The position numbers were made by a program, and so were the translations under genes. From NCBI RefSeq assembly GCF_055900595.2, contig NZ_CM148325.1: DNA of 64,000 nucleotides; one strand, 5' to 3'. Below are positions 11,497 to 61,995 of this stretch, piece after piece. Numbering within the stretch: the first letter of the stretch is position 1; each line of letters opens with the position of its first letter. Under the pieces are notes generated by a model. It saw nothing but the letters and a program-made list of their open reading frames with translations. It ran no database searches and had not been told where the DNA came from.

Positions 11497-11580
<84 letters not shown>

Positions 11581-11610
11581 ATAAATAACAACTAACAGGG
11601 AGTAAAGGCG

Positions 11611-25112: not shown

Positions 25113-25133
25113 GCGCTTCTGATTCGATGATTA

Positions 25134-25170
25134 AAGGCCAGCCAGTATCACAACTGACTGGCCTTTTTAT
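25134..25170. terminator. bidirectional rho-independent terminator between convergent yfeX and yfeW
   Basis: Hairpin ggccag...ctggcc followed by a T-run; located between the convergent stops. Confidence 0.6.
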
Positions 25171-34929: not shown

Positions 34930-34970
34930 GTAGGCCTGATAAGACGCGTAAACGTCGCATCAGGCAACAC
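34930..34970. repeat. REP element
   Basis: gtaggcctgataagacgcg...cgtcgcatcaggca palindromic REP consensus. Confidence 0.7.
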
Positions 34971-34988
34971 CACGTATGGACAGAAATC

Positions 34989-35900
34989 GTGAGTACATTA
35001 GAACAAACAATAGGCAATACGCCTCTGGTGAAATTACAACGAATGGGGCCGGATAACGGCAGTGAAGTGTGGTTAAAGCTGGAAGGCAATAATCCGGCCG
35101 GTTCGGTGAAAGATCGTGCGGCGCTTTCGATGATCGTCGAGGCGGAAAAGCGCGGGGAAATTAAACCGGGTGATGTGTTAATCGAAGCCACCAGTGGTAA
35201 CACCGGGATTGCGCTGGCAATGATCGCTGCGCTAAAAGGCTATCGCATGAAATTGCTGATGCCCGATAACATGAGCCAGGAGCGTCGCGCGGCGATGCGT
35301 GCCTACGGTGCGGAGCTGATTCTGGTCACCAAAGAGCAGGGCATGGAAGGTGCGCGCGATCTGGCGCTGGAGATGGCGAATCGTGGCGAAGGCAAGCTGC
35401 TCGATCAGTTTAATAATCCCGATAATCCTTATGCGCATTACACCACCACCGGGCCGGAAATCTGGCAGCAAACCGGCGGTCGCATTACCCATTTTGTCTC
35501 CAGCATGGGGACGACCGGTACGATTACCGGCGTGTCGCGCTTTATGCGCGAGCAATCCAAACCGGTGGCGATTGTTGGTCTGCAGCCGGAAGAGGGCAGC
35601 AGCATTCCCGGCATTCGTCGCTGGCCTGAGGAATATCTGCCAGGCATCTTCAACGCTTCGCTGGTGGATGAGGTGCTGGATATTCATCAGCGTGATGCGG
35701 AAAACACCATGCGCGAACTGGCAGTGCGGGAAGGGATTTTCTGCGGTGTAAGTTCCGGTGGCGCGGTTGCCGGAGCACTGCGGGTGGCAAAAGCCAACCC
35801 CGGCGCTGTAGTGGTGGCGATCATCTGCGATCGCGGCGATCGCTACCTTTCTACCGGGGTGTTTGGGGAAGAGCACTTTAGTCAGGGGGCGGGGATTTAA
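34989..35900 (+). CDS. cysM: cysteine synthase B (O-acetylserine sulfhydrylase B)
   Basis: 303-aa PLP-enzyme ORF with lysine motif SVKDR. Confidence 0.93.
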   Translation: MSTLEQTIGNTPLVKLQRMGPDNGSEVWLKLEGNNPAGSVKDRAALSMIVEAEKRGEIKPGDVLIEATSGNTGIALAMIAALKGYRMKLLMPDNMSQERRAAMRAYGAELILVTKEQGMEGARDLALEMANRGEGKLLDQFNNPDNPYAHYTTTGPEIWQQTGGRITHFVSSMGTTGTITGVSRFMREQSKPVAIVGLQPEEGSSIPGIRRWPEEYLPGIFNASLVDEVLDIHQRDAENTMRELAVREGIFCGVSSGGAVAGALRVAKANPGAVVVAIICDRGDRYLSTGVFGEEHFSQGAGI

Positions 35901-35937
35901 GGATTAATAGCATTGGAGGCTGATGACAAACGCAAAA

Positions 35938-36038
35938 CTGCCTGATGCGCTACGCTTATCAGGCCTACAAGGTTCCTGTAATATATTGAATTAGCAATAT
36001 TTTGTAGGCCGAATAAGGCGTTTACGCTGCATCTGGCA
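35938..36038. repeat. BIME (two inverted REP units)
   Basis: tgcctgatgcgctacgcttatcaggcctaca and inverted tgtaggccgaataaggcgtttacgctgcatctggca. Confidence 0.7.
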
Positions 36039-36104
36039 TAAACAAAGTGCACTTTGTCAATAATCTGCTTTGTCGGCAGTTGTTGCTGCCGACAAATGCA
36101 GTTT

Positions 36105-52123: not shown

Positions 52124-53008
52124 ATGGAACGCGTATATAGAACAGATCTTAAGTTGCTCCGTTATTTTCTTGCCGTAGCGGAAGAGTTGCATTTTGGTCG
52201 CGCAGCAGCGCGTTTAAATATGTCTCAGCCTCCGCTCAGTATTCATATTAAAGAGCTGGAAAATCAACTCGGCACGCAGCTTTTTATTCGCCATTCGCGC
52301 AGCGTCGTACTGACACACGCGGGCAAAATCTTGATGGAAGAATCGCGTCGATTGCTGGTGAATGCAAATAATATATTGGCTCGGGTTGAACAAATAGGTC
52401 GGGGAGAAGCAGGGCGGATTGAACTCGGGGTTGTGGGAACGGCAATGTGGGGACGGATGCGCCCGGTTATGCGGCGATTCCTTAGAGAAAATCCTAACGT
52501 TGAAGTTCTGTTTCGCGAAAAGATGCCCGCGATGCAAATGGCCTTGCTGGAACGCCGCGAACTTGATGCCGGGATCTGGCGAATGGCGACAGAACCACCG
52601 ACTGGTTTTACCAGCTTACGGTTGCATGAATCGGCGTTTCTGGTGGCGATGCCTGAAGAGCATCATCTCTCATCATTTTCCACCGTCCCGCTGGAAGCGC
52701 TACGTGACGAGTATTTCGTTACAATGCCGCCCGTGTACACTGACTGGGATTTTTTGCAGCGAGTTTGCCAGCAGGTGGGATTTTCACCGGTTGTTATTCG
52801 CGAAGTTAATGAACCGCAAACGGTACTCGCCATGGTCAGTATGGGTATTGGTATCACATTGATAGCGGACAGCTACGCGCAGATGAACTGGCCCGGTGTC
52901 ATATTCCGTCCGCTCAAAGAACGCATCCCGGCAGACTTATATATTGTTTATGAAACGCAGCAGGTGACGCCCGCGCTGGTTAAACTGCTGGCGGCGTTGG
53001 CGCAGTAG
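52124..53008 (+). CDS. xapR: LysR-family activator of xapAB
   Basis: Internal ATG of ORF 52109-53008; product MERVYRTDLKLLRYFLAVAEELHFGRAAARL... (294 aa). Confidence 0.9.
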   Translation: MERVYRTDLKLLRYFLAVAEELHFGRAAARLNMSQPPLSIHIKELENQLGTQLFIRHSRSVVLTHAGKILMEESRRLLVNANNILARVEQIGRGEAGRIELGVVGTAMWGRMRPVMRRFLRENPNVEVLFREKMPAMQMALLERRELDAGIWRMATEPPTGFTSLRLHESAFLVAMPEEHHLSSFSTVPLEALRDEYFVTMPPVYTDWDFLQRVCQQVGFSPVVIREVNEPQTVLAMVSMGIGITLIADSYAQMNWPGVIFRPLKERIPADLYIVYETQQVTPALVKLLAALAQ

Positions 53009-53078
53009 ATGAGAGGCACGGGAACTGCCGGACATAGTTGGTCTGATAAGCGAAGCGCATCAGGCAATTTCGCAAATT

Positions 53079-53135
53079 GCAGATAGCAAAAAAGCGCCTT
53101 TAGGGCGCTTTTTTACATTGGTGGGTCGTGCAGGA
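53079..53135. repeat. 57-bp direct repeat copy 1: terminator hairpin plus 3'-terminal fragment of tRNA-Lys
   Basis: Identical to 53235-53291 (gcagatagcaaaaaagcgcctttagggcgcttttttacattggtgggtcgtgcagga); diverges after tgcagga. Confidence 0.8.
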
Positions 53136-56768: not shown

Positions 56769-58958
56769 ATGTTTGTGGAGCATAACCTGATAAAAAATAT
56801 CAAGATATTCACACTAGCGTTTACGCTCACCGTGGTACTTATTCAGCTATCCCGTTTTATTTCGCCACTTGCCGTTATCCATTCCAGTTATATCTTTTTG
56901 GCGTGGATGCCACTGTGCGTAATGCTGGCAATCTTGTTTATCTTTGGCTGGCGCGGTGTCGTTCCTGTTTTAGGCGGGATGTTTTGCACCAATCTGTGGA
57001 ATTTTCATCTCTCTTTTTTACAGAACTCCGTCATGCTCGGCAGCCAGACGTTTGCAGTCCTGTGTGCCTGTGCAATATTACGCTGGCAATTGGGAACGCG
57101 TTGGCGTTATGGTTTGACCAGCCGATACGTCTGGCAACGTCTCTTCTGGCTTGGTTTGGTGGCACCGATTGGCATCAAATGCAGCATGTATCTTGTGGGG
57201 AATTTCTTTGATTTTCCGCTAAAGATATCTACCTTTTTCGGCGATGCGGATGCCATTTTCACGGTCGTTGATTTGCTAAGCCTTTTCACCGCAGTGCTGA
57301 TTTACAACATGCTGTTTTACTATCTCACCCGCATGATTGTAAGTCCCCACTTTGCGCAGATACTGTGGCGCAGGGATATCGCTCCGTCGTTGAGCAAAGA
57401 GAAACGCGTATTTACCTTAAGCTGGCTGGCAGCTCTTAGCGTGCTGCTACTTCTGATGTGTACACCGTATGAAAATGACTTCATTGCCGGTTACCTGGTA
57501 CCTGTTTTCTTTATCATCTTTACCCTCGGGGTCGGTAAGCTTCGCTATCCGTTTTTAAATCTCACCTGGGCTGTTTCAACGCTTTGCCTTCTGAATTACA
57601 ACCAGAACTTTTTGCAAGGGGTACTAACCGAATATTCGCTGGCATTTATTCTCGCGGTGCTGATTTCCTTTAGTGTTTGCCTGCTCTATATGGTGCGCAT
57701 TTATCATCGTAGTGAATGGCTTAACCGACGCTGGCATTTGCAGGCGCTGACCGATCCGTTAACGCTCTTACCCAACTTTCGCGCGTTGGAACAAGCACCA
57801 GAGCAAGAGGCTGGCAAGAGTTTTTGCTGCCTGCGTATTGATAACCTTGAGTTTATGAGTCGTCATTACGGGTTAATGATGCGCGTTCACTGTATCCGCT
57901 CAATTTACCGTACGTTAATGCCGCTGATGCAGGAAAACGAAAAGTTGTATCAATTGCCGGGGAGTGAACTGCTATTAGTACTGAGCGGGCCGGAAACGGA
58001 AGGGCGACTCCAGCATATGGTTAACATCCTGAATAGTCGGCAAATTCACTGGAACAATACCGGGCTGGATATGGGCTATGGTGCCGCCTGGGGGCATTTC
58101 GATGGAAATCAGGAAACCCTGCAACCCTTGTTGGGGCAGTTAAGCTGGCTGGCGGAGCAATCCTGCGCACATCATCATGTGCTGGCGCTGGATAGCAGAG
58201 AGGAGATGGTTTCCGGGCAAACCACTAAACAGGTGCTATTGCTGAATACCATTCGCACGGCGTTAGATCAGGGTGATTTGCTGCTCTACGCCCAGCCAAT
58301 TCGCAACAAAGAGGGTGAAGGTTATGATGAGATCCTCGCGCGACTGAAGTATGACGGCGGCATTATGACCCCGGATAAGTTTCTGCCCCTTATTGCTCAG
58401 TTTAACCTTAGCGCGCGTTTTGATTTGCAAGTGCTGGAATCCTTGTTGAAGTGGCTGGCAACACACCCTTGCGACAAAAAAGGTCCGCGCTTTTCAGTCA
58501 ATTTAATGCCGCTCACGCTGCTGCAAAAAAATATCGCCGGGCGGATTATTCGTCTGTTTAAGCGTTATCACATCTCCCCGCAGGCGGTCATTCTTGAGAT
58601 CACCGAGGAACAGGCGTTTTCTAACGCAGAAAGCAGTATGTACAACATCGAGCAGCTGCATAAGTTTGGTTTCCGGATTGCGATTGATGATTTTGGCACC
58701 GGCTATGCCAACTACGAACGGCTAAAGCGTTTGCAGGCTGATATCATCAAAATTGATGGCGTCTTTGTGAAAGATATCGTCACGAACACGCTGGATGCGA
58801 TGATTGTGAGATCAATTACCGATCTGGCGAAAGCGAAGTCATTGAGTGTGGTCGCGGAGTTTGTCGAGACGCCACAGCAGCAGGCGCTATTGCATAAGCT
58901 CGGGGTGCAATATCTGCAAGGGTATTTGATTGGTCGCCCTCAGCCATTAACTGATTAA
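56769..58958 (+). CDS. pdeA: membrane-anchored c-di-GMP phosphodiesterase-type protein (EAL domain; GGDEF-like region without GGDEF motif)
   Basis: Internal ATG of ORF 56709-58958; product MFVEHNLIKNIKIFTLAFTL... (729 aa); multi-TM N-terminus; C-terminal EAL-domain motifs (YAQPI, DDFGTGYANYERL). Confidence 0.88.
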   Translation: MFVEHNLIKNIKIFTLAFTLTVVLIQLSRFISPLAVIHSSYIFLAWMPLCVMLAILFIFGWRGVVPVLGGMFCTNLWNFHLSFLQNSVMLGSQTFAVLCACAILRWQLGTRWRYGLTSRYVWQRLFWLGLVAPIGIKCSMYLVGNFFDFPLKISTFFGDADAIFTVVDLLSLFTAVLIYNMLFYYLTRMIVSPHFAQILWRRDIAPSLSKEKRVFTLSWLAALSVLLLLMCTPYENDFIAGYLVPVFFIIFTLGVGKLRYPFLNLTWAVSTLCLLNYNQNFLQGVLTEYSLAFILAVLISFSVCLLYMVRIYHRSEWLNRRWHLQALTDPLTLLPNFRALEQAPEQEAGKSFCCLRIDNLEFMSRHYGLMMRVHCIRSIYRTLMPLMQENEKLYQLPGSELLLVLSGPETEGRLQHMVNILNSRQIHWNNTGLDMGYGAAWGHFDGNQETLQPLLGQLSWLAEQSCAHHHVLALDSREEMVSGQTTKQVLLLNTIRTALDQGDLLLYAQPIRNKEGEGYDEILARLKYDGGIMTPDKFLPLIAQFNLSARFDLQVLESLLKWLATHPCDKKGPRFSVNLMPLTLLQKNIAGRIIRLFKRYHISPQAVILEITEEQAFSNAESSMYNIEQLHKFGFRIAIDDFGTGYANYERLKRLQADIIKIDGVFVKDIVTNTLDAMIVRSITDLAKAKSLSVVAEFVETPQQQALLHKLGVQYLQGYLIGRPQPLTD

Positions 58959-59017
58959 CAGGCGTAAAAAAAGCAGGGAATTATCCCCGGCTTTTGTGGC
59001 TGATGACAAACAGAAAA

Positions 59018-59049
59018 ATGCCTGATGCGCTACGCTTATCAGGCCTACA
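59018..59049. repeat. REP element between pdeA and nupC
   Basis: tgcctgatgcgctacgcttatcaggcctaca, same unit as at 35938-35969. Confidence 0.7.
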
Positions 59050-59100
59050 TGGAATTGAAGCCGGGGAATTATCCCCGGCTTTTTAATTAATGAATTGGAC

Positions 59101-60303
59101 TTACAGCACCAGTGCTGCGATTGACGCAGACAGCACACTCACCAGAGTAGAGCCGTAAACCAGTTTCAGACCGAAGCGAGAAACCACGTTACCTTGTTCT
59201 TCATTCAGGCCTTTAACCGCACCGGCGATAATCCCGATAGAAGAGAAGTTAGCGAAGGAAACCAGGAACACAGAGATGATGCCTTCAGCACGCGGAGAGA
59301 GCGTGGAAGCAATTTTCTGCAGATCCATCATTGCAACGAACTCGTTGGAAACCAGTTTGGTCGCCATAATACTGCCCACCTGCAGTGCTTCACTGGAAGG
59401 AACACCCATCACCCACGCAACCGGATAGAAGATGTAGCCCAGGATGCCCTGGAAGGAGATGCTGTAGCCAAACCAGCCAGTCACAGTGGCAAACAGTGCG
59501 TTCAGCGCAGCGATCAGGGCGATAAAGCCGATCAGCATCGCGGCAACGATAATAGCAACTTTGAAACCTGCCAGAATGTATTCACCCAGCATTTCGAAGA
59601 AGCTCTGACCTTCGTGCAGGTTGGACATCTGAATGTTTTCTTCACTGGCATCAACACGGTAAGGGTTGATCAGTGACAGCACGATAAAGGTGCTGAACAT
59701 GTTCAGTACCAGCGCCGCAACGACGTATTTCGGCTCCAGCATCGTCATGTATGCACCAACGATGGACATCGACACGGTGGACATCGCCGTAGCTGCCATG
59801 GTGTACATACGATTGCGGGAGATTTTGCCGAGGATATCTTTATAGGCAATAAAGTTTTCAGACTGACCCAGAATCAGAGAGCTGACGGCGTTGAAGGATT
59901 CCAGTTTGCCCATACCGTTGACTTTGGAGAGCAGGAAACCAATTGCGCGGATAATCACCGGCAACACGCGAATGTGCTGGAGAATACCAATCAGCGCAGA
60001 GATAAAGACGATTGGGCACAGCACTTTCAGGAAGAAGAATGCCAGGCCTTGATCATTCATGCTACCAAAGACGAAGTTAGTCCCTTCGTTGGCAAATCCG
60101 AGCAGTTTCTCAAACATTTCGGAGAAGCCTTTCACGAAGCCCAAACCAACGTCGGAGTTCAGGAAGAACCACGCCAGTAACACTTCGATAACAAGCAGTT
60201 GAATAACATAACGGATACGAATTTTTTTGCGGTCGCTGCTTACCAGCAGTGCGAGAATCGCAACAACGGCAAGTGCCAGTACAAAATGAAGGACGCGGTC
60301 CAT
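59101..60303 (-). CDS. nupC: nucleoside:H+ symporter NupC
   Basis: Internal ATG of ORF 59101-60342; product [24 protein letters not shown]... (400 aa). Confidence 0.92.
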
Positions 60304-61905: not shown

Positions 61906-61995
61906 GGCGGATGCGGCGTAAAACGCCTTATCCGCCCTACGCGTTAAAGAGCCGGTTTGTAGGCCTGATAAGACGCGCTAGCGTCGCATCAGGCA
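61906..61995. repeat. BIME (two inverted REP units) between mntH and ypeC
   Basis: ggcggatgcggcgtaaaacgccttatccgcc and gtaggcctgataagacgcgctagcgtcgcatcaggca. Confidence 0.7.

What the first reader, a model, noticed from the sequence alone, without database searches (positions are those of the whole stretch)
58974..59085. Pair of ggaattatccccggctttt direct repeats flanking the REP between pdeA and nupC
Seen in sequence: the 19-nt motif ggaattatccccggctttt appears at 58977-58995 and 59065-59083. The second copy forms a clean hairpin (gccgggga-atta-tccccggc) followed by a T-run, i.e. a rho-independent terminator; the first is imperfect. The spacer between convergent pdeA and nupC therefore holds a REP bracketed by duplicated terminator-like hairpins.
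Basis: seen in the sequence. Interest (0 to 1): 0.2.

Follow-up and report, generated by a model that had tools for sequence, protein, structure and literature searches.

The report
Terminator hairpin duplicated around REP remnant
The spacer between two converging E. coli genes holds a broken copy of a common repeat element (BIME-1/REP) sitting inside the genes' shared transcription-stop hairpin, with a copy of the whole hairpin on each side; the same footprint recurs at other copies of this element and hints at how it spreads.

Summary
GGGAATTATCCCCGGCTTTT occurs exactly twice, at 58976-58995 and 59064-59083, 88 bp apart. The two copies flank a Y-type REP between convergent pdeA and nupC.

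Most E. coli and three other Escherichia lineages have one perfect bidirectional terminator hairpin in a 49-bp spacer. The window allele occurs in 17 of 5,426 complete E. coli genomes and carries an 88-bp insertion.

E. whittamii has a complete ~150-bp BIME-1 at the same junctions, flanked by both hairpin copies. The window form matches it apart from one ~90-105-bp internal deletion, which leaves the left flank motif, the Y REP and a few linker bases.

So the repeat is a duplication of the whole terminator palindrome around a BIME-1. Termination itself is inferred, not shown.

The pattern is general:
- Five loci have filled/empty allele pairs with 17-30-bp whole-palindrome duplications.
- 10 of about 28 BIME-1 loci exceed the 99th percentile of a cross-locus null (permutation 0/20,000).

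IS200/IS605-type enzymes, the presumed mobilisers, make no target duplication, and how REP/BIME elements spread is unknown. I found no report of this footprint, but could not read Bachellier 1997.

The hairpin is also a recurrent IS186 target.

The parts
56769..58958 (+). pdeA coding sequence (bifunctional diguanylate cyclase/phosphodiesterase); stop TAA at 58956-58958
   Evidence: ORF list. RefSeq annotation of a genome 100% identical over 58700-59400.
58966..58995 (.). Hairpin copy 1 (decayed): A7 - GCAGGGA - ATTA - TCCCCGGC - T4. On the - strand it reads hairpin + U7. On the + strand it reads hairpin + UUUUG.
   Evidence: Sequence. Inverted repeat I3. Folds of -11.4 (+) and -12.6 (-) kcal/mol. 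It gave both terminator-like hits of the consensus scan, both on the - strand (two overlapping calls).
58976..58995 (+). Exact 20-nt direct repeat, copy 1 (GGGAATTATCCCCGGCTTTT)
58996..59019 (+). Left flank ('A') motif of BIME-1: GTGGCTGATGACAAACAGAAAAAT. Consensus at other loci is GAGRCTGATGACAAACGCAAAAYT.
   Evidence: 88-94% matches to 52-59 nt of flank plus REP at many other E. coli loci. Alignment by eye with BIME-1 copies at six loci. BIME-1 profile hits.
59020..59049 (+). Y-type REP (palindromic unit) GCCTGATGCGCTACGCTTATCAGGCCTACA; CTAC tetranucleotide at 59045-59048
   Evidence: The identical 30-mer occurs in BIME-1 copies elsewhere. Fold -13.2 kcal/mol.
59050..59058 (+). Remnant of the BIME-1 linker (TGGAAT) joined to the last bases of the BIME-1 right end (TGA). 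This is the scar of a ~90-105-bp internal deletion that removed the IHF-site linker, the Z1 REP and the right flank motif.
   Evidence: Alignment with the complete BIME-1 of E. whittamii at the same site.
59058..59084 (.). Hairpin copy 2 (intact): AAGCCGGGGA - ATTA - TCCCCGGCTT + TTT. On the + strand it reads hairpin + U5. On the - strand it reads hairpin + UUCAAUU. It contains GGGG-N6-CCCC.
   Evidence: Inverted repeat I4, 10/10 complementary. Folds -20.4 (+) and -20.2 (-) kcal/mol, z about -5.1. IS186 is inserted in this copy in strain Z0117EC0005.
59064..59083 (+). Exact 20-nt direct repeat, copy 2
58996..59083 (+). The 88 bp that are extra relative to the single-hairpin allele of typical E. 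coli. This is one of several equivalent placements, because of the duplication.
   Evidence: Comparison with L001 (49-bp spacer) and with EC42405.
59101..60303 (-). nupC coding sequence (nucleoside permease); stop codon at 59101-59103

Best explanation
Shown: pdeA and nupC converge on a single palindromic intrinsic terminator in most Escherichia (AAAAAAGCCGGGGAATTATCCCCGGCTTTTTT). Read on either strand it is a GC-rich hairpin followed by a U-tract. In the window allele a BIME-1 element (a REP doublet, also called RIP, RIB or REPIN) sits at this hairpin, and the whole palindrome is present on both sides of it. The complete version (flank-Y REP-IHF linker-Z1 REP-flank, about 150 bp) survives in E. 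whittamii. In the window one internal deletion has removed everything between the start of the linker and the last three bases of the element, leaving the left flank motif and the Y REP.

Inferred: the duplication arose at insertion. Two symmetric nicks, one on each strand a few bases 3' of the hairpin foot inside the A/T tract, would give 3' overhangs that each carry the full palindrome. Joining the element and filling in would then duplicate the palindrome. This explains why the length of the duplication tracks the size of the target palindrome (17-30 bp at five loci) rather than being fixed.

Inferred function: both copies still act as intrinsic terminators, and the good U-tracts are on the outer sides. 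pdeA transcripts should partly pass the weak copy 1, include the REP, and end after copy 2. nupC transcripts meet the strong copy 2 with a poor U-tract and then copy 1 with U7. The REP in the 3' UTRs could act as a barrier to 3' exonucleases. Copy 1 is decaying, as is one copy at most other duplicated loci.
For: Repeat and hairpins.

Single-hairpin allele: typical E. coli, Escherichia sp. MOD1-EC7003, 'E. coli' SCPM-O-B-8794 and Escherichia sp. E1V33.

Frequency: the window allele is in 17 of 5,426 complete E. coli genomes.

Complete BIME-1 between both hairpin copies in E. whittamii: same junctions (..GGC(A/T)TTT|G(A/T)GGCTGATGAC and ..TGA|AGCCGGGG), same orientation, same start of the linker (CATGG(G)AAT).

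The insert is BIME-1-derived.

Independent filled/empty allele pairs with the same architecture:
- artJ-rlmC
- alx-ygjR
- pbp4b-yfeX and the fbp downstream terminator

Survey of about 28 distinct full-length BIME-1 loci: flank-to-flank similarity exceeds the 99th percentile of cross-locus pairs at 10 loci and the 95th at 12. No permutation of 20,000 reached the observed mean (subset). In the 22-locus subset, 17 have a strong hairpin abutting an element end.

Folding energies: ancestral -29.5/-25.0, copy 2 -20.4/-20.2, copy 1 -11.4/-12.6 kcal/mol.
Against: - No transcript data, so termination and REP effects are inferred.
- The nicking model is pure inference. The enzyme is unknown, and the presumed mobiliser family (IS200/IS605-like Y1 transposases) is described as making no target duplication.
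- The flanks of the window allele are ordinary E. coli: 97-97.5% identical to K-12 but 88% to E. whittamii in pdeA. The shared insertion therefore needs an old polymorphism with many losses, a second hit at a hot spot, or a short-patch transfer.
- About half of the BIME-1 loci sampled show no flank duplication, and a few have no abutting hairpin.
- The sample of loci comes from one pattern scan of metagenome contigs and is not unbiased.
Confidence: 0.8

Rival explanations
1. Polarity reversed. The BIME-1 flanked by two hairpins is the old state of the pdeA-nupC spacer in Escherichia. The single hairpin of most E. coli arose, repeatedly or once with spread by recombination, through deletion between the two 20-27-bp direct repeats. 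The window allele is then a relic, not a lineage-specific gain. The duplication would still have been made when the element first arrived.
For: The same insertion is in E. whittamii and in E. coli genomes whose flanks are E. coli-like right up to the spacer. Direct repeats of this length are good substrates for deletion. The single-hairpin allele of Escherichia sp. E1V33 is ATGCC..GGCTT, exactly the chimera expected from recombination between whittamii copy 1 (ATGCC..GGCAT) and copy 2 (AAGCC..GGCTT). The L014 allele of artJ-rlmC equals the K-12 allele minus a 24-bp stretch containing the left copy.
Against: 5,409 of 5,426 E. coli genomes lack it, and four of the five other Escherichia lineages examined show no BIME-1 there: three have the single hairpin, and E. 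albertii has an unrelated insertion in it. This history therefore needs many losses or a sweep. At alx-ygjR none of the 5,426 genomes is filled, which looks like a recent gain.
Confidence: 0.25
2. Two unrelated events. The terminator was first duplicated in tandem, for example by replication slippage at the palindrome, and a REP/BIME later inserted between the copies.
For: Palindromes stall replication and provoke slippage (general knowledge). The end product would look the same.
Against: No allele with two hairpins and no element was seen at any of the five polymorphic loci. The coincidence would have to recur at 10 or more BIME-1 loci. The duplicated copies always abut the element ends precisely.
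Confidence: 0.05
3. Footprint of IS186. The hairpin is an IS186 target, and the repeats would be what remains after an IS186 insertion and imprecise excision.
For: IS186 is inserted in this very hairpin in K-12 and in 474 of 5,426 genomes with the same junction. It also occurs in the other orientation and in copy 2 of the duplicated allele.
Against: The IS186 duplication here is only about 10 bp (GGAATTATCC) inside the hairpin, not the whole 24-27-bp palindrome. The sequence between the repeats has no IS186 similarity and is 88-94% identical to BIME-1 copies.
Confidence: 0.02
4. Chance resemblance of two GC-rich hairpins.
For: Intrinsic terminators share a general composition. The best cross-locus flank pair in the null scored 33.
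Against: 20 of 20 bases are identical, including the non-palindromic loop AATTAT. No shuffle of 100 gave two matches. The single-copy allele in other genomes has the same sequence.
Confidence: 0.01

Closest known systems
BIME-1 (also called RIP, RIB or REPIN): the Y REP - IHF linker - Z1 REP doublet of E. coli
   Same: The insert has the BIME-1 left flank motif and a 30-nt Y REP identical to those of BIME-1 copies at other loci. The orthologous site in E. whittamii holds a complete BIME-1. Presence/absence polymorphism of BIME-1 among isolates is known (Bachellier 1997 as cited in PMC1187871).
   Different: Here the element is truncated: no IHF linker, no Z1 REP, no right flank. It is also bracketed by a duplication of the target terminator. 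I found no description of this; a review states that REP sequences do not show MITE signatures (PMC3184786).
Bidirectional intrinsic (Rho-independent) terminators between convergent genes
   Same: The ancestral hairpin is a perfect palindrome with A6 on one side and T6 on the other, placed 8-12 nt after each stop codon. It folds at -29.5/-25.0 kcal/mol.
   Different: In the window it is split into two copies. Each retains only the outer A- or T-tract, so neither copy is a good bidirectional terminator on its own.
MITEs (miniature inverted-repeat transposable elements) with terminal inverted repeats and target-site duplications
   Same: BIME-1 ends are inverted repeats of each other: SAGAYTGMTGACAAA at the left end and its complement at the right end. 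In about a third of loci the element is flanked by direct repeats that are single in empty alleles.
   Different: The duplication is long (17-30 bp), varies in length, and always equals a whole palindrome. DDE-transposase MITEs have a fixed, short duplication.
IS200/IS605 family and the REP-associated Y1 transposase (TnpA-REP, RAYT)
   Same: These enzymes recognise DNA hairpins and cut at a set distance from the hairpin foot on single strands. TnpA-REP cuts at C|T next to REP hairpins in vitro (PMC3333891). A terminator hairpin followed by T's resembles such a site.
   Different: This family is described as making no flanking target repeats. A duplication of the target palindrome is not predicted by peel-and-paste insertion into one strand.
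IS186 insertion hot spots (G-run, short spacer, C-run; SaiSree et al. 2001, consensus recalled from memory)
   Same: The hairpin contains GGGG-AATTAT-CCCC. IS186 is found in it in both orientations in many genomes.
   Different: This concerns a second, independent mobile element that uses the same hairpin. It does not explain the repeat pair.
Mobile elements that home to intrinsic terminator hairpins (bacterial class C group II introns; from memory, Robart et al. 2007)
   Same: Insertion is immediately next to a terminator stem-loop, apparently guided by structure rather than sequence.
   Different: The element is unrelated and the mechanism is RNA-based. No duplication of the hairpin is described.

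Membership tests
Intrinsic (Rho-independent) terminator | GC-rich stem-loop | tested here: met
   Copy 2 has a 10-bp perfect stem, -20.4/-20.2 kcal/mol, with no shuffle of 200 folding as well. Copy 1 is imperfect, -11.4/-12.6 kcal/mol.
Intrinsic (Rho-independent) terminator | U-rich tract directly after the stem on the transcribed strand | tested here: inconclusive
   Met for copy 2 on + (UUUUUAAUU) and copy 1 on - (UUUUUUU). Weak for copy 1 on + (UUUUG) and copy 2 on - (UUCAAUU). The consensus scan flagged only copy 1 on the - strand. My reading is that its greedy stem extension uses up the T's of copy 2.
Intrinsic (Rho-independent) terminator | Lies downstream of a stop codon in the direction of transcription | tested here: met
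   Copy 1 starts 8 nt after the pdeA stop. Copy 2 ends 16 nt before the nupC stop.
Intrinsic (Rho-independent) terminator | Transcript 3' ends at the U-tract | not testable with these tools
   No transcriptome data are available here.
REP (palindromic unit), Y type | Imperfect palindrome of about 30-35 nt with the conserved Y sequence and a terminal GTAG/CTAC | tested here: met
   GCCTGATGCGCTACGCTTATCAGGCCTACA at 59020-59049 with CTAC at 59045-59048. It is identical to the Y REPs of BIME-1 copies at six other loci.
REP (palindromic unit), Y type | Extragenic and present in many copies per genome | tested here: met
   It lies between two stop codons. A genome has 7-46 matching places.
BIME-1 (complete element) | Y REP and Z1 REP in inverted orientation separated by the long IHF-site linker, with left and right flank motifs | tested here: not met
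   Only the left flank motif, the Y REP and about 6 nt of linker are present. The Z1 REP, linker and right flank are missing. It is therefore filed as a truncated derivative. The ortholog in E. whittamii is complete.
Transposable-element insertion with target-site duplication | Direct repeats abutting the element ends that are single in an empty allele | tested here: met
   Filled alleles with two copies are. The same holds at four other loci.
Transposable-element insertion with target-site duplication | Observed transposition, or a known enzyme making the staggered cut | not testable with these tools
The literature says the dissemination mechanism is unknown (PMC8266576; PMC3333891).
IS200/IS605-type (Y1, RAYT-mediated) peel-and-paste insertion | No duplication of target sequence on insertion | tested here: not met
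   Duplications of 17-30 bp flank BIME-1 at 10-12 of about 28 loci.
IS186 target hot spot | G-run, 3-6 nt, C-run (consensus from memory) with actual IS186 insertions at the site | tested here: met
   GGGGAATTATCCCC is in copy 2. IS186 is at this site in K-12, in 474 of 5,426 genomes, and in copy 2 of the duplicated allele. Copy 1 has only GGG.

The most novel reading that the evidence does not exclude
BIME-1 elements (REP doublets) integrate at palindromic intrinsic terminators by a structure-guided reaction that cuts both strands symmetrically at the feet of the hairpin. This duplicates the whole palindrome, giving a variable-length (17-30 bp) target duplication. BIME-1 therefore has the hallmarks of a transposable element: inverted terminal repeats plus target duplication. 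Its insertions also copy terminators. The footprint would be the first sequence-level clue to the unknown mechanism by which REP/BIME elements spread, and it argues against simple single-strand peel-and-paste by the REP-associated Y1 transposase.
Probability: 0.35. Interest if true: 0.7.

Novelty: new variant of a known kind. Interest (0 to 1): 0.45.

Why it matters
For this window alone the result is modest: a rare allele of one intergenic spacer is explained. The wider point concerns REP/BIME elements. They are among the most abundant repeats of enterobacterial genomes, yet papers from the groups that study them still say their dissemination mechanism is unknown.

Filled/empty allele pairs in which the whole target terminator is duplicated give a concrete, testable footprint of insertion:
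- They identify terminator hairpins as preferred targets.
- They show how an insertion can hand each of two convergent genes its own terminator copy.
- They explain why so many BIME-1 copies abut a terminator-like hairpin.

The same hairpin is also used by IS186, and by an unidentified element in E. albertii. Palindromic terminators may therefore be general landing pads for mobile DNA.

Tried and rejected
- Chance: rejected by shuffles.
- IS186 footprint: rejected, because the IS186 duplication is about 10 bp and the insert is BIME-derived.
- A donor locus for the 64-nt insert: no locus matches the whole insert. The best other loci match 52-59 nt at 88-94% because they are BIME-1 copies. A simple copy from one identifiable locus is therefore not supported.
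- Known RNA families: three Rfam matches, all far below their gathering scores (24.9 against 49.5, 24.7 against 75, 14.4 against 97).
- Recombination tract from E. whittamii: sliding identity shows E. coli-like flanks up to the spacer, so no tract was detected. nupC is too conserved to be informative.
- rhlE-ybiA as a test of a one-sided locus: the alternative alleles have different downstream genes, so there is no clean empty site.
- pgm locus: the BIME-1 in BL21 follows the terminator T-run without duplication, and other strains have a different neighbour.
- E. albertii insertion: ORFs downstream of the broken hairpin gave no lead.
- Literature: searches found nothing on duplication of terminators by BIME/REP insertion. 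Three key older papers are not in the held library: Bachellier et al. 1997 Genetics, Gilson et al. 1991 NAR, SaiSree et al. 2001. Prior description cannot be excluded.

Full report
**1. The observation**

The window reads, from the pdeA stop (58956-58958) to the nupC stop (59101-59103, - strand):

TAA CAGGCGT AAAAAAA GCAGGGA ATTA TCCCCGGC TTTT | GTGGCTGATGACAAACAGAAAAAT GCCTGATGCGCTACGCTTATCAGGCCTACA TGGAATTGA | AGCCGGGGA ATTA TCCCCGGC TTTTT AATTAATGAATTGGAC TTA.

The exact repeat is 20 nt (58976-58995 and 59064-59083, spacing 88).
- None of 100 shuffles gives two matches, even with three mismatches allowed.
- Copy 2 is a perfect 10-bp stem with a 4-nt loop. Copy 1 has a damaged left arm.
- The sequence between them contains a Y-type REP.
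- A RefSeq genome identical over 58700-59400 annotates the two genes as pdeA and nupC, convergent.

**2. What other genomes have at this site**

- Typical E. coli has a 49-bp spacer holding one hairpin, AAAAAAGCCGGGGAATTATCCCCGGCTTTTTT. Read on either strand this is a hairpin followed by six U. It folds at -29.5 and -25.0 kcal/mol. It is a bidirectional intrinsic terminator in form.
- Escherichia sp. MOD1-EC7003, 'E. coli' SCPM-O-B-8794 and Escherichia sp. E1V33 also have a single hairpin.
- The window allele is rare, found in 17 genomes: 10 identical over 171 nt, 2 with the common downstream sequence, and 5 whose alignment breaks at query position 136, inside copy 2, which in the one read (Z0117EC0005) is an IS186 insertion (read).
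- Relative to the single-hairpin allele, the window has 88 extra bases plus a 5-bp difference near nupC.

**3. What the insert is**

The 64 nt between the hairpin copies match many other E. coli loci at 88-94% over 52-59 nt. Reading six of those loci shows the full unit:

GAGRCTGATGACAAACGCAAAAYT - Y REP - linker with TGCAATATATTGAATTTGCA - Z1 REP - ..GCACTTTGTCAGCAATCTGA

This is BIME-1, the REP doublet with the IHF-site linker. That naming is mine: it rests on the Y/Z1/long-linker definition quoted.

The window has only the left flank motif, the Y REP and a few bases more. I predicted that it derives from a complete BIME-1 flanked by both hairpins, and E. whittamii has exactly that:

..AAAAATGCCGGGGAATTATCCCCGGCATTT | GAGGCTGATGAC..(complete BIME-1)..CAACAAACTGA | AGCCGGGGAATTATCCCCGGCTTTTTT

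The alignment shows that the window form is the whittamii form minus one internal block of about 90-105 bp, running from CATGG(G)AAT to TGAAGCC.

**4. Is the duplication a general property of BIME-1 insertions?**

Five loci have both filled and empty alleles.

| Locus | Empty allele | Filled allele |
|---|---|---|
| pdeA-nupC | as above | as above |
| artJ-rlmC | CAGAAAGCCGCACCTGCGGCTTTTTT | AAGCCGCAACCGCGGCTT \| BIME-1 \| AAGCCGCACATGCGGCTT |
| alx-ygjR | AAAGGAATACGCAGACGTATTCCTTTTTT | the same hairpin on both sides; the inner arm of the left copy has decayed. No complete E. coli genome is filled. |
| pbp4b-yfeX | one 29-30-nt hairpin | that hairpin on both sides, in 1,401 genomes including K-12 types |
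| fbp downstream terminator | one hairpin (loop inverted) | an exact 23-nt duplication, AACGCCGGATTGCTCCGGCGTTT |

In every case the left copy ends with stem plus one to three T just before the element's GAGAC/CAGAC. The right copy starts with one to three A plus stem just after ..CTG(A). The duplicated unit is thus a symmetric palindrome. Its length follows the size of the hairpin (17-30 bp).

For a statistical test I took BIME-1 copies from 120 metagenome contigs and from all other DNA fetched, found with a profile. I collapsed them to about 28 distinct loci. Then I aligned the 32 nt left of each element with the 32 nt right of it.

- The null was left flanks paired with right flanks of other loci: mean score 10.2, 99th percentile 18.
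- 10 loci exceed the 99th percentile and 12 exceed the 95th.
- No permutation of 20,000 reaches the observed mean (subset of 22 loci).
- In the 22-locus subset, 17 have a strong hairpin abutting at least one end of the element.
- Where both copies are recognisable, one is usually intact and the other decayed. In whittamii pdeA-nupC and K-12 artJ-rlmC, both between convergent genes, both copies are still strong.
- The L014 allele of artJ-rlmC equals the K-12 allele minus 24 bp containing the left copy. One-sided loci can therefore descend from two-sided ones.

**5. How it most likely works**

Shown:
- The ancestral hairpin is single.
- The element is BIME-1-derived.
- The palindrome is on both sides.
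- The window copy is internally deleted.

Inferred (mechanism of duplication): a cut on each strand a few bases 3' of the hairpin foot, symmetric because the target is a palindrome, gives 3' overhangs that each hold the full palindrome. Joining an element between them and filling in duplicates the palindrome. This fits the symmetric boundaries and the variable length, which a fixed-stagger transposase would not give. A hairpin-recognising single-strand nuclease acting on both strands would do this. TnpA-REP cuts at C|T beside REP hairpins in vitro, and a terminator stem followed by T's looks similar. However, this enzyme family is said to make no target repeats, so the link is speculative. A replication template switch is an alternative.

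Inferred (function):
- Copy 2 on the + strand (-20.4 kcal/mol, then U5) and copy 1 on the - strand (-12.6 kcal/mol, then U7) are the better terminators.
- Copy 1 on the + strand (U4 then G) and copy 2 on the - strand (UUCAAUU) are weaker.
- Each mRNA should therefore often extend through the REP to the distal hairpin.
- The whole spacer RNA can also pair copy 1 with copy 2 around the REP hairpin (minimum free energy -49.7, against -46.8 kcal/mol for three local hairpins).

**6. History of the window allele**

The window's pdeA and nupC ends are 97-97.5% identical to K-12. They are only 88% (pdeA) identical to E. whittamii, right up to the spacer. Yet the insertion shares junctions, orientation and linker start with whittamii. 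Three histories remain open:
- an old polymorphism with many losses by recombination between the hairpin copies;
- a second hit on a hot spot;
- a short-patch transfer.

One hint for loss is the single hairpin of Escherichia sp. E1V33. It is ATGCC..GGCTT, with a T-T mismatch, which is the exact chimera of whittamii copy 1 (ATGCC..GGCAT) and copy 2 (AAGCC..GGCTT).

**7. Other users of the hairpin**

- K-12 carries IS186 in the single hairpin with a ~10-bp duplication, GGAATTATCC.
- The same junction is in 474 of 5,426 genomes.
- One strain's alignment extends only through the first ~25 nt of the IS end, which suggests IS186 in the other orientation; I did not read that locus.
- In the duplicated allele IS186 chose the intact copy 2, which has GGGG-N6-CCCC, and not copy 1, which has GGG.
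- This fits the published IS186 target consensus as I recall it (SaiSree et al. 2001; the paper was not readable here).
- E. albertii has an unidentified insertion starting in the loop.

**8. Comparison with what is known**

- REPs, BIME-1, their location at 3' ends of transcription units, and presence/absence polymorphism of BIME-1 among isolates are all known.
- A review states that REP sequences lack MITE signatures.
- Recent papers state that the dissemination mechanism is unknown.
- I found no description of terminator duplication at BIME-1 insertions. The most relevant older paper (Bachellier et al. 1997) could not be read, so priority is uncertain.

**9. Verdict**

Locally it is a truncated BIME-1 in a duplicated terminator, a rare allele and otherwise ordinary. 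Its value is as an entry point to a recurrent, statistically solid footprint of BIME-1 insertion.

Noticed in passing
window 25125-25170 (- strand), spacer between pbp4b (yfeW) and yfeX: The window carries the empty allele here: a single hairpin, AAAGGCCAGTCAGTTGTGATACTGGCTGGCCTTT. In 1,401 of 5,426 E. coli genomes, including K-12 types, this terminator holds a BIME-1 bracketed by a 29-30-bp duplication of the hairpin. Another strain has IS200C next to the hairpin.
   Followed up: yes
window 59058-59084, and L002/L005 (K-12 W3110, Z0117EC0005): The pdeA-nupC hairpin is a recurrent IS186 target. IS186 occurs with a ~10-bp duplication in K-12, and the same junction is in 474 of 5,426 genomes. 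It is in the opposite orientation in Z0117EC0005 (L005), where it sits in the intact copy 2 of the duplicated allele.
   Followed up: partly
L018 (E. albertii NBRC 107761), just after the pdeA stop: The same hairpin is interrupted in its loop (GGGGAAT|ATTCTCTAATGCCGATCAG...) by an unrelated insertion of at least 1.5 kb. nupC is not adjacent. The ORFs gave no lead.
   Followed up: partly
window ~35915-36067: A complete BIME-1 lies after the ORF ending at 35900. It has no hairpin on its left. In the orthologous metagenome contig, a long hairpin (TTTGTCGGCAG..CTGCCGACAAA) abuts its right end.
   Followed up: partly
window ~52990-53110 (- strand): A terminator-like hairpin, AAAAAAGCGCCCTAAAGGCGCTTTTTT, is followed about 22 nt later by a single Y-type REP. 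This is another terminator-REP pairing.
   Followed up: no
window 11497-11590, 34934-34965, 61920-61994: Other REP pairs or singlets of the Z/Y types lie in intergenic spacers. They were not analysed.
   Followed up: no
window 58980-59009 (- strand): There is a sigma-70-like match, TTGTCA - 18 nt - GATAAT (10 of 12). It is formed by the BIME flank motif and the loop of hairpin copy 1, and points back into pdeA. It is probably chance.
   Followed up: no
L048 and L151 (terminator downstream of fbp): The loop of the hairpin is inverted between alleles (ATTGCT against AGCAAT) while the stems are identical. At L132 the two copies flanking a BIME-1 also have mutually inverted loops (GCAA against TTGC). 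Loop flipping of terminator hairpins appears to be common.
   Followed up: no
L006 (E. coli EC42405), pdeA stop: The pdeA stop TAA is changed to GAA. This extends the protein by three codons to the TAA just before the A-tract of hairpin copy 1.
   Followed up: no
L016 and L019 (E. whittamii, Escherichia sp. E1V33): Whittamii copy 1 is ATGCC..GGCAT and copy 2 is AAGCC..GGCTT; each is a perfect palindrome. The single hairpin of E1V33 is the mismatched chimera ATGCC..GGCTT. This is either an excision footprint or a sign that inner arms are templated on outer arms.
   Followed up: partly
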